From Escherichia coli (GTDB taxonomy: Bacteria; Pseudomonadota; Gammaproteobacteria; Enterobacterales; Enterobacteriaceae), in the NCBI RefSeq assembly GCF_030384885.1, contig NZ_CP128613.1: a DNA stretch of 64,000 nucleotides; one strand, 5' to 3'. The position numbers were made by a program. Of this stretch, positions 18,401 to 21,400 are shown piece by piece. Position 1 is the first letter of the stretch. Every line of letters starts with the position of its first letter.

Positions 18401-21400
18401 CACTGCATGATGATGGTGCGCTGTTTGTCATCCAGCTGTACGCTGGCGGCATCGACCTTTTTCTGCGCGACAATCAGCTCGTTTTTCAGTTTCTGATTTT
18501 CTTCTTTTAACCCGTTGATCACGCTGTCGCTCTGCGCCACTTTTTGCTGCATTTCTGCGGTGCGCTGATTCCAGGTGTTATCGATATTGGTGAGCTTATC
18601 GGTCAGGGTTTTGACCTGATTTTCCAGATCTGGCACACGGGAGCGCAGGCTTGGCTCTGTGCTAAGTTGTTTCAACGGGATCCAGGCGGTACGGCCAGAG
18701 CTGTCTTTCACCTGGGCATAATTGGTGTTGGCATCAGTTTGTAATAAGGTCACTTCCTCGCCGGCGTTAACCGTGCCCACGAGGCGATAATGGTCTCCCG
18801 GACCGCTACGGACCCAGGTATTCAGTTCGTCGGAAACATAGCGCGTTTCTTCAGCGTGTGAGACGGCAGTCGCGCTAAGTGCGAGTAAAGTTAATCCGAT
18901 CAGGCGTAATTTTGGCATCAGGCTGTCGTTATTGTCATGGAAAGTGGAACGATAGTAGTGGCATCAGTGTCGCTACGCAAAGCATTCGACATCAATCGGA
19001 ATCCTCTGTGTCAGGTCTTGCCACTGCTTCAAACTTTTACGCCCGTCAAATTGCCCGTTGCATGGCAATTTGGCGCAAAATACTATCTACTGACAAAAAA
19101 GATCGCATTAAGTTCGCCGTTCATCGTCACTTATGTGACATAACCGATAAGTAAAGGCTTTGACATCCTCCCCCACCTTCGCGCAAAGCGACTCAGGAGG
19201 GGGATTCCCTTGTCAGGGTAGCAATACGTTGCCGCATTGCCCGGTTCCTCGCTCGACGGCTTACGCCGCCTTACGGGCGCGTCCTTTACGGACTGACGGC
19301 AATATTTGTCCTGCCGCCATGACTTCAAAACCTGCTGTTAATATATTTCGAGCGCCGTTTACATCGGCGTTTGCCGTATAGCCGCACGCGGTACAGATAA
19401 AGCTCGCCTGCGCCCTGCGGTTAATTTTCGATGTATGCCCACAACATGCGCATTTCTGACTGGTGTACGCCGGATTAATCGCCAGCACATCACCGCCGCG
19501 CCATGCCTGCTTATATTCGAGCTGGCGGCGCATTTCTGCCCAGCCCTGATCCAGTATCGCTCGGTTAAGACCTGATTTTGCCGCGACGTTGCGCCCCGGC
19601 TGGTCTACCGTACCCGCTGCTGATTTTGACATGTTCGAAACCTTTAAATCCTCAATGACTATCATCGCGTGGTTTTTGCTGATCGTCGTCGTGGTTTTAT
19701 GAAGGTAATCGCGGCGGATGTTTGCGATATGAGAGTGGAAACGGGAAATCTTCGCTTTCTGCTTTTTCCAGTTGGCGGAGAATTTAACCTTCCGGGCCAG
19801 ATGGCGCTGTAAGCGAGCCAGCTTATCCTGATTTTTTTTAAAGCTGTTTACCGGTTCAAAGATCGTGCCGTCTGAAAGTGTTGCCAGCTTCGTTATACCT
19901 GCATCCAGGCCTATTGCGCTGGTCGATGCGTGAATCGGATCGGTAACAGCTAATTCGACCTGAAAAGACACATACCAGTGTCCGGCATGCTGGCTGATGG
20001 TGCAATTTTTAATGACGCCTTCAATCTTCCGGGACTGACGAAATTTAACCCAGCCCAGTCCTGACGGGAGTTTCACACGGCCATAATCCAGCCCACAATA
20101 TTTGCTGAAATTGACGAACCGGATAGAGTCGCAGCCTTTGGTTTTCTTTTTGAAAACGGGCTTTTCAGCCGTCAGGGATTTATCAAAACAGCGATCCCAT
20201 GCGCTCCGCAGGTCTTTCAGTTTCTGCTGGAGGTTGTCAGTGTAACCCTCAGCAAGAAAGGCCAGCTCAGGGAGTTTTTTCCAGCCCGTAAGTCGTTTAT
20301 TCAGGTCGAAAGCTGACGGAATTTTTCCGCCCGCGTCATGAATGCTCAGTGTTTCATTCAGTGCATAGTTCCAGACAAAGCGAGCGCAACCGCACAACTG
20401 ACGCAACCTTTGCGCCTGCTGGTCAGTGGGGTAGAGCCTGTATTTATATGCTTTCTGGATTAACATTTTGCATTCAGTATGTGGTTATTTAGAATGTACA
20501 ATATATCCACATTTTTTTGGGAGGATCAATACGTGTGCGAAATCAATCGTTCACGCTATTCAGCTTACCTGTTGCATGTTCACGTTGTTTTTATGACAAA
20601 ATACCGCCGTCCAGTTTTTGGTGAATTGCATCATGCAAACATGCGTCAGTATGTAGCGGAGGTATGCGCGGACTTTGGCGCCGAGTTAAAGGAATGTGAC
20701 GGCGAGGCAGATCATGTTCACATGCTGATTGAATACCCACCGTTGGTGCAACTCACAAAGCTGGTAAACAGCCTTAAGTCCGTTACCAGTAGGCGGCTGC
20801 GGAATGATTTTATTGATTTGCGCGCCGCGTATTCAAAGCCCGTACTCTGGTCACGCTCTTATTTCATCGGTTCATGTGGTGGAGCACCGCTGGAAGTTGT
20901 GAAAAAGTATATTCAGAATCAGCGTGGCTGATAAACTGCGGGCTTAACAGCCCAAATTCCCCTCCCGCCTACGTTGGGGGGGAGTACCCAGTGGAGGAAG
21001 GATGGCTCAGGAAATCGAATTAAAGTTTATTGTTAATCACAGTGCCGTTGAGGCGTTGCGTGACCATCTCAATACGCTGGGCGGCGAGCACCATGACCCC
21101 GTGCAGTTGCTGAATATTTACTACGAAACGCCGGATAACTGGTTGCGTGAACACGATATGGGCTTACGTATTCGTGGCGAAAACGGCCGCTATGAGATGA
21201 CCATGAAAGTCGCTGGAAGAGTGACTGGCGGTTTACACCAGCGCCCGGAATATAACGTGGCGTTGAGCGAACCGACGCTCGACCTGGCGCAGTTACCGAC
21301 GGAAGTCTGGCCGAACGGCGAATTGCCTGCCGATCTCGCTTCCCGCGTACAACCGCTGTTCAGCACCGATTTTTATCGCGAAAAGTGGCTGGTGGAACTC

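What the first reader, a model, noticed from the sequence alone, without database searches (positions are those of the whole stretch)
18919..21001. IS200/IS605-family element with intact tnpA and tnpB inserted between ygiM and ygiF
A Y1 HUH transposase and a 401-aa TnpB with RuvC-I/II/III residues and a C-terminal CxxC…CxxC zinc finger sit divergently between two conserved genes that I recall as adjacent in K-12. Both ORFs look uninterrupted, so the element may be active.
Basis: partly seen in the sequence, partly recalled or inferred. Interest (0 to 1): 0.55.

Follow-up and report, generated by a model that had tools for sequence, protein, structure and literature searches.

The report
Known insertion sequence ISEc41 beside ygiF
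This is an intact copy of ISEc41, an already catalogued E. coli jumping gene that carries a transposase and an RNA-guided nuclease, sitting at the one chromosomal site where it is always found, so it is ordinary rather than new.

Summary
Window 19261-20466 (-) is an uninterrupted 401-aa TnpB. Window 20479-20931 (+) is an uninterrupted Y1/HUH TnpA. The two genes are divergent and lie between ygiM and ygiF, which are adjacent in K-12.

RefSeq calls it "IS200/IS605-like element ISEc41". A 2023 survey lists ISEc41 with the features I derived independently: 150-aa TnpA, 401-aa TnpB, 1845-1846 bp, left cleavage site CCAT, right cleavage site TCAA, and one copy per genome.

Comparison with empty sites gives exact ends of 19160-21001 (1842 bp), not the whole 18919-21001 intergenic region. 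There is no target duplication. The element sits 3' of CCAT on the tnpB strand, which is the ATGG of the ygiF start codon. The right end finishes in ...GGAGGATGTCAA, a motif conserved across 35 relatives.

Catalytic residues, end hairpins and a strongly structured, covarying guide-RNA region are all intact. However, 146 of 5,426 complete E. coli genomes carry the element, always as a single copy at this same site, and none has it elsewhere. "May be active" therefore has no support from copy data.

Side finding: ten genomes carry a 63-bp remnant of the element's two ends.

Novelty: already known. Interest: low.

The parts
19160..21001 (-). Complete ISEc41 element, 1842 bp. Orientation is given by tnpB: the left end (LE) is at 21001 and the right end (RE) is at 19160.
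   Evidence: Insert sizes at this site are 0 (K-12), 63 (RM14723), 1842 (window and three others) and 1841 bp (Nissle). Homology to plasmid and other-species relatives begins exactly at 19160. PGAP names it ISEc41. The published length of 1845-1846 bp equals 1841-1842 plus CCAT.
19261..20466 (-). tnpB, an RNA-guided endonuclease of 401 aa. Catalytic residues D188, E272, D368. Zinc finger C339/C342/C358/C361.
20479..20931 (+). tnpA, a Y1 HUH transposase. It is 150 aa as annotated. The true start is probably GTG 20533 (132 aa), which follows the ribosome-binding sequence GGAGGA. HUH = H79/H81; catalytic Y144, Q148.
   Evidence: The alignment to IS608 TnpA begins at residue 11 of the 132-aa form.
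20467..20532 (.). Divergent promoter-like region between the tnpB ATG and the probable tnpA GTG start.
   Evidence: The plus strand has TTTGCA-17-TAGAAT at 20467-20495. The minus strand has TTGATC-18-TATATT at 20529-20500. Both are 9/12 consensus matches only.
19160..19225 (-). Right end (RE). It holds the subterminal imperfect hairpin TCCCCC-T-CCT...AGG-T-GGGGGA and the terminal ...GGAGGATGTCAA, with cleavage site TCAA at 19160-19163.
   Evidence: The DNA fold is -15.3 kcal/mol, z=-3.3. The motif GGGGAGGATGTCAA is conserved in 35 relatives, and their flanks diverge immediately after it. The published RE cleavage site is TCAA.
19160..19330 (-). Predicted guide-RNA (omega RNA) scaffold, overlapping the 3' end of tnpB and running to the RE boundary. 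The 5' limit is not determined.
   Evidence: The RNA fold of 171 nt is -83.2 kcal/mol, z=-5.9, with 0 of 200 shuffles folding as well. GAAGCAGGAACC-type and GGAATCC motifs are conserved, and hairpin pairs show compensatory changes across 22 relatives. The function is inferred from the ISDra2 and ISGst systems (PMC8612924, PMC10055086).
19140..19159 (-). Flank just outside the RE that would be transcribed as the guide (5'-AGCCTTTACTTATCGGTTAT-3'). This is host DNA, not part of the IS.
   Evidence: The position is inferred from the RE boundary. Base 19159 differs from K-12 and from four other carrier strains.
20932..21001 (-). Left end (LE). It holds the imperfect hairpin CTCCCCCC...GGCGGGAG and a second small hairpin, GGGCT-GTTA-AGCCC, after the tnpA stop codon.
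   Evidence: The hairpin is perfect in relatives L005 and L009 (CTCCCGCC/GGCGGGAG). This copy has one mismatch at the position that is also mismatched in L004 and L007.
21002..21005 (-). Target site, and predicted TnpB recognition motif (TAM), CCAT on the tnpB strand. On the plus strand this is ATGG, the ygiF start codon plus G. It lies outside the IS and is not duplicated.
   Evidence: The K-12 empty site reads ...GAGCCAT|GGCC.... CCAT flanks the LE in five independent insertions (window, L004/L006, L005, L008, L009). The published LE cleavage site is CCAT.
19199..19204 (+). GGGGGA, the RE-side copy of the 6-bp repeat. The other copy is at 20978-20983. The 63-bp remnant allele is joined at this repeat.

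Best explanation
**What it is.** The insert is a complete copy of ISEc41. ISEc41 belongs to the IS200/IS605 family, in the subgroup with divergent tnpA and tnpB (IS606-type, called "IS605c" in PMC9956272).

**Shown here.**
- The element spans 19160-21001.
- It has no terminal inverted repeats and makes no target duplication.
- It sits immediately 3' of CCAT on the tnpB-sense strand and ends in TCAA.
- It has subterminal hairpins at both ends.
- It encodes a TnpA with the HUH and YxxxQ motifs, and a TnpB with an intact RuvC triad and zinc finger.

**Inferred from characterised relatives (IS608, ISDra2, ISGst).**
1. TnpA excises the tnpB-sense strand as a single-stranded DNA circle. It recognises the end hairpins and pairs short internal DNA guides with the cleavage sites. 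By analogy with IS608, these would be GGTA just 5' of the LE hairpin pairing with CCAT, and GAAT just 5' of the RE hairpin pairing with TCAA.
2. Excision reseals the donor site without a scar, as CCAT|AGCCTTTAC....
3. The guide RNA is made from the 3' end of tnpB plus the RE and reads out into the flank.
4. It directs TnpB to cut that resealed empty site, using motif CCAT plus a roughly 16-20 nt match.
5. Recombination with the sister chromosome then restores the element.

**Consequence.** This retention loop, together with rare re-integration, fits the observed pattern: an old, single-copy, single-site element that stays intact in about 2.7% of E. coli genomes.
For: **Identity.**
- The window is 100% identical to E. 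coli 2013C-4282, where PGAP annotates ISEc41 tnpA plus InsQ/TnpB.
- Table S1 of PMC9956272 gives ISEc41 as 150 aa / 401 aa / 1845-1846 bp / CCAT / TCAA, with 65 copies in 65 genomes. Every one of these matches what I derived.

**Ends and target.**
- The K-12 empty site and the three-allele comparison fix the boundaries.
- The RE motif is conserved in 35 loci with unrelated flanks.
- CCAT flanks five independent insertions.

**Proteins.**

**RNA and hairpins.**
- The 171-nt RNA fold has z=-5.9.
- Compensatory changes occur at four predicted pairs.
- The RE DNA hairpin has z=-3.3.

**DNA-guide rule.** In a sister clade the target and guide covary: TTAC with AAAG (Yersinia ruckeri) and TTAT with AAAA (Morganella). 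ISEc41 and two close relatives have CCAT with GGTA.

**Mechanism literature.** PMC8612924 (ISDra2 TnpB) and PMC10055086 (donor-joint homing), read.

**Population.**
- 146 of 5,426 genomes carry the element, one copy each, always between ygiM and ygiF.
- All five sampled alleles have both ORFs intact.
Against: - No functional data exist for this element. Transposition, guide-RNA expression, the CCAT recognition motif and nuclease activity are all inferred.
- No second insertion site is seen in any E. coli genome, so TnpA-driven integration may be extremely rare or lost.
- tnpB shows only weak purifying selection across five alleles: 9 nonsynonymous against 7 synonymous variable sites, a pN/pS of about 0.38 on small counts.
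- The LE hairpin of this copy folds weakly (z=-0.9).
- Rfam has no matching RNA family, so the guide-RNA assignment rests on position, structure and conservation.
Confidence: 0.93

Rival explanations
1. The element is a structurally intact but transpositionally inert resident. On this reading it was inserted once, long ago, and is now carried only by vertical descent and ordinary homologous recombination. It might even be kept because ygiF expression now depends on it, since the LE supplies the ribosome-binding sequence GGAGG directly before the ygiF ATG and tnpA reads toward ygiF.
For: - It is single copy and single site in all 146 carrier genomes, with no plasmid copies.
- Alleles differ by 0.5-0.9%, so the insertion is not recent.
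- pN/pS for tnpB is about 0.38.
- The LE abuts the ygiF ATG, and there is no T-rich terminator between tnpA and ygiF.
Against: - Every catalytic residue, both ends and the guide-RNA region are intact in all five alleles examined.
- tnpA shows no amino-acid change downstream of the probable GTG start.
- Single-site persistence is also what TnpB-mediated retention predicts (PMC10055086).

The two readings differ only in whether the machinery still fires. They agree on what the element is.
Confidence: 0.35
2. The element is shorter (19205-20983) and inserted into a pre-existing 63-bp hairpin element. On this reading the RM14723-type allele is the true empty site.
For: The 63-bp allele equals the window's 19160-19204 joined to 20984-21001. 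It therefore looks like a clean "empty site" for an inner element flanked by GGGGGA.
Against: - Relatives at 47-77% identity share homology out to 19160 and end exactly at ...GGATGTCAA, with unrelated flanks beyond.
- The LE outer 19 nt (GGGTAC...) is also conserved in relatives.
- The 63-bp sequence occurs nowhere else in E. coli.
- The published length of 1845-1846 bp and cleavage sites CCAT/TCAA fit the outer ends.
Confidence: 0.02
3. TnpB here is a domesticated, nuclease-dead regulator (TldR-like) rather than a transposon nuclease.
For: None specific. It was considered only because the gene is single-copy and at a fixed site.
Against: - D188/E272/D368 and all four zinc-finger cysteines are present and align to ISDra2 D191/E278/D361.
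- A cognate tnpA and both transposon ends are present.
Confidence: 0.02

Closest known systems
ISEc41 (ISfinder entry; surveyed in PMC9956272, Genes 2023, Table S1)
   Same: TnpA is 150 aa and TnpB is 401 aa. The length is 1842 bp plus CCAT, giving 1846. The LE cleavage site is CCAT and the RE cleavage site is TCAA. The ORFs are divergent ("IS605c"). There is one copy per carrier genome. PGAP applies this name to this exact sequence.
   Different: Nothing material. This strain's copy has private substitutions: TnpB I202 and I348, where the four other alleles compared have V and N, and a T at 19159 in the flank.
ISSen6 / ISEc44 / ISEc89 group (Salmonella and E. coli) and the unnamed Klebsiella, Citrobacter, Aeromonas and Xenorhabdus relatives fetched here (L004-L009)
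   Same: They share the divergent layout and the CCAT target. They share the RE terminus GGTGGGGGAGGATGTCAA and the LE core AGGCGGGAGGGGAATTT. TnpB identity is 71-75% and DNA identity is about 74-77%.
   Different: They are different IS species. Many are plasmid-borne or multi-copy, whereas ISEc41 is chromosomal and single-site.
IS608 (ISHp608) of Helicobacter pylori, the mechanistic model for TnpA
   Same: The TnpA fold and catalytic residues match (2A6M, E=1.5e-20; HUH and Y127 aligned). Both have subterminal hairpins, an RE ending in TCAA preceded by GAAT 5' of the hairpin, and no target duplication. The IS608 guide/cleavage rules are from my own knowledge of Barabas et al. 2008.
   Different: IS608 has tnpA and tnpB in the same direction and overlapping. 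Its target is TTAC, not CCAT.
ISDra2 TnpB with its right-end guide RNA (PMC8612924; structures 8H1J, 8EXA)
   Same: There is a full-length alignment (E=7e-49). Both have the same D-E-D triad and zinc finger, a guide RNA encoded at the 3' end of tnpB plus the RE, and an RE cleavage site of TCAA.
   Different: The ISDra2 recognition motif is TTGAT, against CCAT predicted here. ISEc41 TnpB has a roughly 15-aa insertion (AAGTVDQPGRNVAAK) after the E272 strand. The gene order also differs.

Membership tests
IS200/IS605 family (IS605 group) | Y1 HUH single-strand transposase (TnpA) with HUH and a C-terminal catalytic Tyr | tested here: met
   Pfam Y1_Tnp 6.8e-39. NCBIfam transpos_IS200 139.5 bits against a cut-off of 55. 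H79-V-H81 and Y144xxxQ148 align to IS608 H64/H66/Y127.
IS200/IS605 family (IS605 group) | Accessory TnpB (OrfB) with a split RuvC domain and zinc finger | tested here: met
   Pfam HTH_OrfB_IS605 + OrfB_IS605 + Cas12f1-like_TNB. guided_TnpB 355 bits against a cut-off of 100. D188/E272/D368 and four Cys present.
IS200/IS605 family (IS605 group) | Insertion without target-site duplication, 3' of a fixed tetra- or pentanucleotide | tested here: met
   The K-12 empty site reads ...CCAT|GGCC.... The occupied site reads CCAT|IS|AGCC..., with no repeated flank. CCAT is found at five independent insertions.
IS200/IS605 family (IS605 group) | No terminal inverted repeats; subterminal imperfect hairpins at LE and RE on one strand | tested here: met
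   The RE hairpin has z=-3.3. The LE hairpin has 8 bp with one mismatch; it is weak in this copy (z=-0.9) but conserved, and perfect in L005 and L009.
IS200/IS605 family (IS605 group) | Single-strand "peel and paste" excision and integration by TnpA | not testable with these tools
   This needs an excision or mating-out assay. The copy data show no second site.
ISEc41 (specific IS) | Sequence identity to the ISfinder ISEc41 reference | not testable with these tools
   ISfinder is not available here. Indirect support is strong: PGAP gives the name "ISEc41 family transposase" to this exact protein, and all tabulated ISEc41 features match.
ISEc41 (specific IS) | Published descriptors: 150-aa OrfA, 401-aa OrfB, 1845-1846 bp, CCAT/TCAA, divergent ORFs | tested here: met
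   Searches set.
TnpB guide-RNA (OMEGA) RNA-guided nuclease system | Structured guide-RNA scaffold overlapping the tnpB 3' end and the RE, with the guide read from the flank | tested here: inconclusive
   The position is right, the fold has z=-5.9, and motifs and covariation are conserved across 22 relatives. No transcript data exist and there is no Rfam family.
TnpB guide-RNA (OMEGA) RNA-guided nuclease system | Recognition motif (TAM) equal to the transposon target site; RNA-guided double-strand DNA cleavage | not testable with these tools
   The motif CCAT is predicted from the insertion site only.

The most novel reading that the evidence does not exclude
ISEc41 may be a natural example of a TnpB-maintained "one-address" element. 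On this reading its presence at the identical ygiF start-codon site, on divergent flanking haplotypes, reflects RNA-guided homing into empty sites after DNA transfer between strains, rather than only descent plus ordinary recombination.

Among five carriers, synonymous diversity is 0.01-0.03 inside the IS against 0.11-0.19 in the adjoining ygiM and ygiF, and the site patterns are incongruent.

My data do not exclude this. They are equally explained by a simpler process: flanks being overwritten by imports from IS-less strains, while the IS itself has no outside donors.
Probability: 0.1. Interest if true: 0.45.

Novelty: already known. Interest (0 to 1): 0.12.

Why it matters
The practical value is modest.

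- **Precise map.** The analysis gives an exact map of ISEc41 in widely used strains, since the same element is in CFT073, Nissle 1917 and ATCC 25922. The map covers the ends, target site, predicted recognition motif CCAT, guide sequence and probable guide-RNA scaffold.
- **Effect on ygiF.** The element sits directly on the ygiF start codon. It replaces the native ribosome-binding site and 5' leader of the ygiF-glnE unit. This could matter to anyone comparing nitrogen-regulation or triphosphatase expression between K-12 and these strains.
- **No new biology.** The finding does not open a new biological question.

Tried and rejected
1. **Rfam search.** A permissive search of 18800-21200 gave no hit. 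No curated family covers this guide RNA.
2. **Inner-boundary model.** I first read the 63-bp RM14723 allele as the empty site. I rejected this once plasmid and other-species relatives showed homology out to 19160 and a conserved terminal GGATGTCAA.
3. My early notes put the RE end at 19155. Recounting the ruler and BLAST offsets gives 19160.
4. **Wrong catalytic tyrosine.** I first took the Y in SRSYF as catalytic. Alignment to IS608 TnpA shows it is Y144 in YIQNQ.
5. **Plasmid copies.** I looked for ISEc41 on plasmids as evidence of movement. None is at 90% identity or more, and the best are Klebsiella relatives at 76%.
6. **Homing signature.** I compared diversity in the IS and its flanks and searched for IS-less genomes carrying the window's flank haplotype. 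The nearest is 98.0% identical. This is inconclusive and compatible with ordinary recombination.
7. **Other copies in the window.** A search for the RE terminus in the 64-kb window found only this copy.
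Full report

Yes. ORF listing of 16500-24000 shows two uninterrupted ORFs:
- a 401-aa ORF at 19261..20466 on the minus strand;
- a 150-aa ORF at 20479..20931 on the plus strand.

They sit back to back between ygiM (18298..18918, minus) and ygiF (21002..22303, plus).

The 401-aa protein is a TnpB:
- Pfam finds HTH_OrfB_IS605, OrfB_IS605 and Cas12f1-like_TNB.
- NCBIfam guided_TnpB scores 355 bits against a cut-off of 100.
- It aligns end to end with the solved ISDra2 TnpB (8H1J/8EXA, E=7e-49).
- The aligned catalytic positions are D188, E272 and D368. The zinc-finger cysteines are C339, C342, C358 and C361.

The 150-aa protein is a Y1 transposase:
- Pfam Y1_Tnp gives 6.8e-39. NCBIfam transpos_IS200 scores 139.5 bits against a cut-off of 55.
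- It aligns to ISHp608 TnpA (2A6M, E=1.5e-20).
- HUH is H79-V-H81. The catalytic tyrosine and glutamine are Y144 and Q148, corresponding to IS608 Y127.

In K-12 MG1655, ygiF and ygiM are adjacent and divergent with a 241-bp spacer.

**2. Source and name**

The 2.6 kb around the element is 100% identical to E. coli 2013C-4282 (NZ_CP027579.1). There RefSeq annotates "IS200/IS605-like element ISEc41 family transposase" and "RNA-guided endonuclease InsQ/TnpB family protein".

A published survey of TnpB-containing elements (PMC9956272, Table S1) lists ISEc41 in E. coli as:
- subgroup IS605c, meaning ORFs separated and in reverse orientation;
- 65 copies in 65 genomes;
- 1845-1846 bp;
- OrfA 150 aa and OrfB 401 aa;
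- LE cleavage site CCAT and RE cleavage site TCAA.

**3. Exact ends and target, derived independently**

Three alleles exist at this site, with insert lengths of 0, 63 and 1842 bp (1841 in Nissle 1917, which lacks one G at 20976).

| Allele | Sequence at the site | Source |
|---|---|---|
| K-12 | ...gataagtaaaggcc\|ATGgctcag | |
| RM14723 | 63 extra bases between those points | |
| Window | 1842 extra bases, 19160-21001 | |

Read on the tnpB-sense (minus) strand, the occupied site is:

...GAGCCAT | CCTTCCTCCACTGGGTACTCCCCCCC...(IS)...GGGGGAGGATGTCAA | AGCCTTTACTTATC...

No flank is duplicated.

The outer ends are the true ends, for these reasons:
- A Klebsiella plasmid relative (about 76% identity) and a Citrobacter plasmid relative (77%) become homologous exactly at 19160.
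- In 35 loci encoding TnpB relatives of 47-81% identity, from Aeromonas, Xenorhabdus, Yersinia, Morganella, Serratia, Buttiauxella, Acidithiobacillus and others, the motif GGGGAGGATGTCAA is conserved. Sequence diverges completely right after it.
- On the left side, five independent insertions are all preceded by CCAT: GAGCCAT in the window, GACCAT in L004/L006, GGGCCAT in L005, and CATCCAT in both L008 and L009.

These results reproduce the published CCAT/TCAA. They also explain the published length: 1842 + 4 = 1846.

**4. Anatomy**

- **Right end.** It carries a long imperfect hairpin, TCCCCC-T-CCT-GAG-TCGC-TTTGC-GCGA-AGG-T-GGGGGA. The DNA fold is -15.3 kcal/mol with z=-3.3. It is followed by GGATGTCAA. 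The inner stem shows compensatory change between relatives: TCGC/GCGA, TCAC/GTGA and CGC/GCG.
- **Left end.** It carries CTCCCCCC...GGCGGGAG. The hairpin is perfect in L005 and L009. It has one mismatch at the same position in this copy, in L004 and in L007. In this copy it folds weakly (z=-0.9).
- **Guide-RNA region.** The last 171 nt on the tnpB strand, which include the final 70 nt of the ORF, fold into a chain of hairpins at -83.2 kcal/mol. The z-score is -5.9 and none of 200 shuffles folds as well. Across 22 relatives, the motifs GAAGCAGGAACC and GGAATCC and the terminal GGAGGATGTCAA are near-invariant. Four predicted pairs show double compensatory changes. This is what is expected for a TnpB guide-RNA scaffold, and also for the TnpA-binding RE hairpin. 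Rfam has no corresponding family.
- **Promoter region.** Between the tnpB ATG (20466) and an in-frame GTG at 20533, which is preceded by GGAGGA, lie divergent promoter-like hexamers. The IS608 alignment begins at residue 11 of the GTG-started protein. The real TnpA is therefore probably 132 aa. The 150-aa annotation is not wrong as an ORF.

**5. How it most likely works**

The parts are shown by the sequence. The dynamics are inferred from IS608, ISDra2 and ISGst.

1. TnpA binds the LE and RE hairpins on the tnpB-sense strand. It cleaves 3' of CCAT and 3' of TCAA.
2. It releases a single-stranded DNA circle and reseals the donor site as CCAT|AGCC....
3. Integration occurs 3' of another CCAT.

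The cleavage sites are probably read by short internal DNA guides. GGTA lies directly 5' of the LE hairpin and is complementary position by position to CCAT. GAAT lies directly 5' of the RE stem and precedes TCAA, the same pair as in IS608 (the IS608 pairing is from my own knowledge). Supporting the rule, a sister clade shows target and guide changing together: TTAC with AAAG in Yersinia ruckeri, and TTAT with AAAA in Morganella.

TnpB loaded with the guide RNA would recognise CCAT followed by AGCCTTTACTTATCGG..., the resealed donor joint. It would cut it and provoke recombinational restoration of the IS. This is the mechanism shown for ISGst elements (PMC10055086) and for ISDra2 TnpB nuclease activity (PMC8612924).

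**6. Is it active?**

Nothing in the sequence forbids activity, but the copy data give no sign of it.
- 146 of 5,426 complete E. coli genomes carry the element. These include CFT073, Nissle 1917, ATCC 25922 and clone D i14.
- Each has one copy, always between ygiM and ygiF.
- The only other chromosomal matches are the ten 63-bp alleles. Plasmid matches are different IS species at 80% identity or less.
- The source genome has one copy (H31).

Five alleles from different backgrounds all keep both ORFs open. Across them there are 16 variable sites in tnpB, 9 of them amino-acid changing, giving a pN/pS of about 0.38. There are no amino-acid changes in TnpA downstream of the GTG start. By contrast, relatives are multi-copy elsewhere. 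For example, at least six right ends with different flanks occur in Buttiauxella warmboldiae.

**7. Comparison with known families, and novelty**

All testable defining features of the IS200/IS605 family are met, and so are all published descriptors of ISEc41. Only a direct ISfinder alignment and functional assays are missing. The finding is a correct identification of an already known element.

**8. Things seen on the way**

- **The 63-bp allele.** Ten genomes carry it, all identical over 261 bp. It equals the first 19 nt of the LE joined to the last 44 nt of the RE, inside a 6-bp repeat (GGGGGA at 19199-19204 and 20978-20983). It most simply reflects an internal deletion between the similar 5' arms of the two hairpins (GGGTACTCCCCC and AGGGAATCCCCC). 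It keeps CCAT, one hybrid hairpin and TCAA (third fold).
- **Position on the ygiF start codon.** Because CCAT is the complement of ATGG, the IS landed exactly on the ygiF start codon. The last bases of the LE (GGAGGAAGG) now form the ribosome-binding site. tnpA reads toward ygiF with no T-rich terminator between them.
- **Diversity.** Synonymous diversity among five carriers is 0.01-0.03 in the IS genes against 0.11-0.19 in the adjoining parts of ygiM and ygiF, with incongruent site patterns. The nearest IS-less flank haplotype is 98.0% identical to the window's. Flank replacement by recombination with IS-less strains explains this without invoking homing, so I leave it as an open minor point.

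Noticed in passing
window 19160-19204 + 20984-21001; locus L003 2509-2571: Ten of 5,426 E. coli genomes (RM14723, ERP001, EC12 and others) carry a 63-bp remnant at the ygiM-ygiF site. It consists of the LE's first 19 nt fused to the RE's last 44 nt within a GGGGGA repeat. It retains CCAT, one hybrid hairpin and TCAA. It is most likely an internal deletion of ISEc41, and it occurs nowhere else in E. coli.
   Followed up: partly
window 20990-21005: The IS left end abuts the ygiF ATG. The target CCAT is the complement of ATGG. The terminal GGAGGAAGG replaces the weak native ribosome-binding site (taaaggcc in K-12). tnpA is co-directional with ygiF and no T-rich terminator lies between them. ygiF-glnE expression may therefore depend on the IS in carrier strains.
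   Followed up: partly
window 20479-20533: The annotated 150-aa tnpA start (ATG 20479) leaves only 12 bp to the tnpB start. An in-frame GTG at 20533 has a GGAGGA ribosome-binding sequence. Divergent promoter-like hexamers lie at 20467-20529. IS608 homology begins just downstream of the GTG. The true TnpA is probably 132 aa.
   Followed up: partly
window 18700-21300 compared with loci L043-L046: Among five ISEc41-bearing genomes, synonymous diversity is about 5-10 times lower inside the IS (0.01-0.03) than in the flanking ygiM and ygiF (0.11-0.19). IS and flank site patterns are incongruent. The nearest IS-less flank haplotype is only 98.0% identical to the window's. This is compatible with flank mosaicism by recombination. 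Homing is not excluded.
   Followed up: partly
window 19159: The first base outside the RE, which would be the first guide nucleotide of the guide RNA, is T in this strain. It is C in K-12, in RM14723 and in the four other carrier alleles examined.
   Followed up: no
loci L012/L024 (Yersinia ruckeri) and L013/L015 (Morganella psychrotolerans), around position 988: A sister TnpB clade with the same RE terminus (GGGGAGGATGTCAA) has a different LE. Its flanks read TTAC or TTAT. The four bases 5' of the LE hairpin are AAAG or AAAA respectively, so target and DNA guide covary.
   Followed up: partly
loci L031 and L036-L040 (Buttiauxella warmboldiae): At least six right ends of a related element, each with a different flank, mostly at contig ends. 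The family is multi-copy, and presumably active, in that genome. This contrasts with single-site ISEc41.
   Followed up: no
locus L004 3332-3556 and 3827-4751 (Klebsiella-type plasmid in E. coli J53): The 76%-identical plasmid relative is inserted into the zinc-ribbon end of another tnpB, and a further tnpB lies next to it. This is a nest of IS200/IS605 elements.
   Followed up: no
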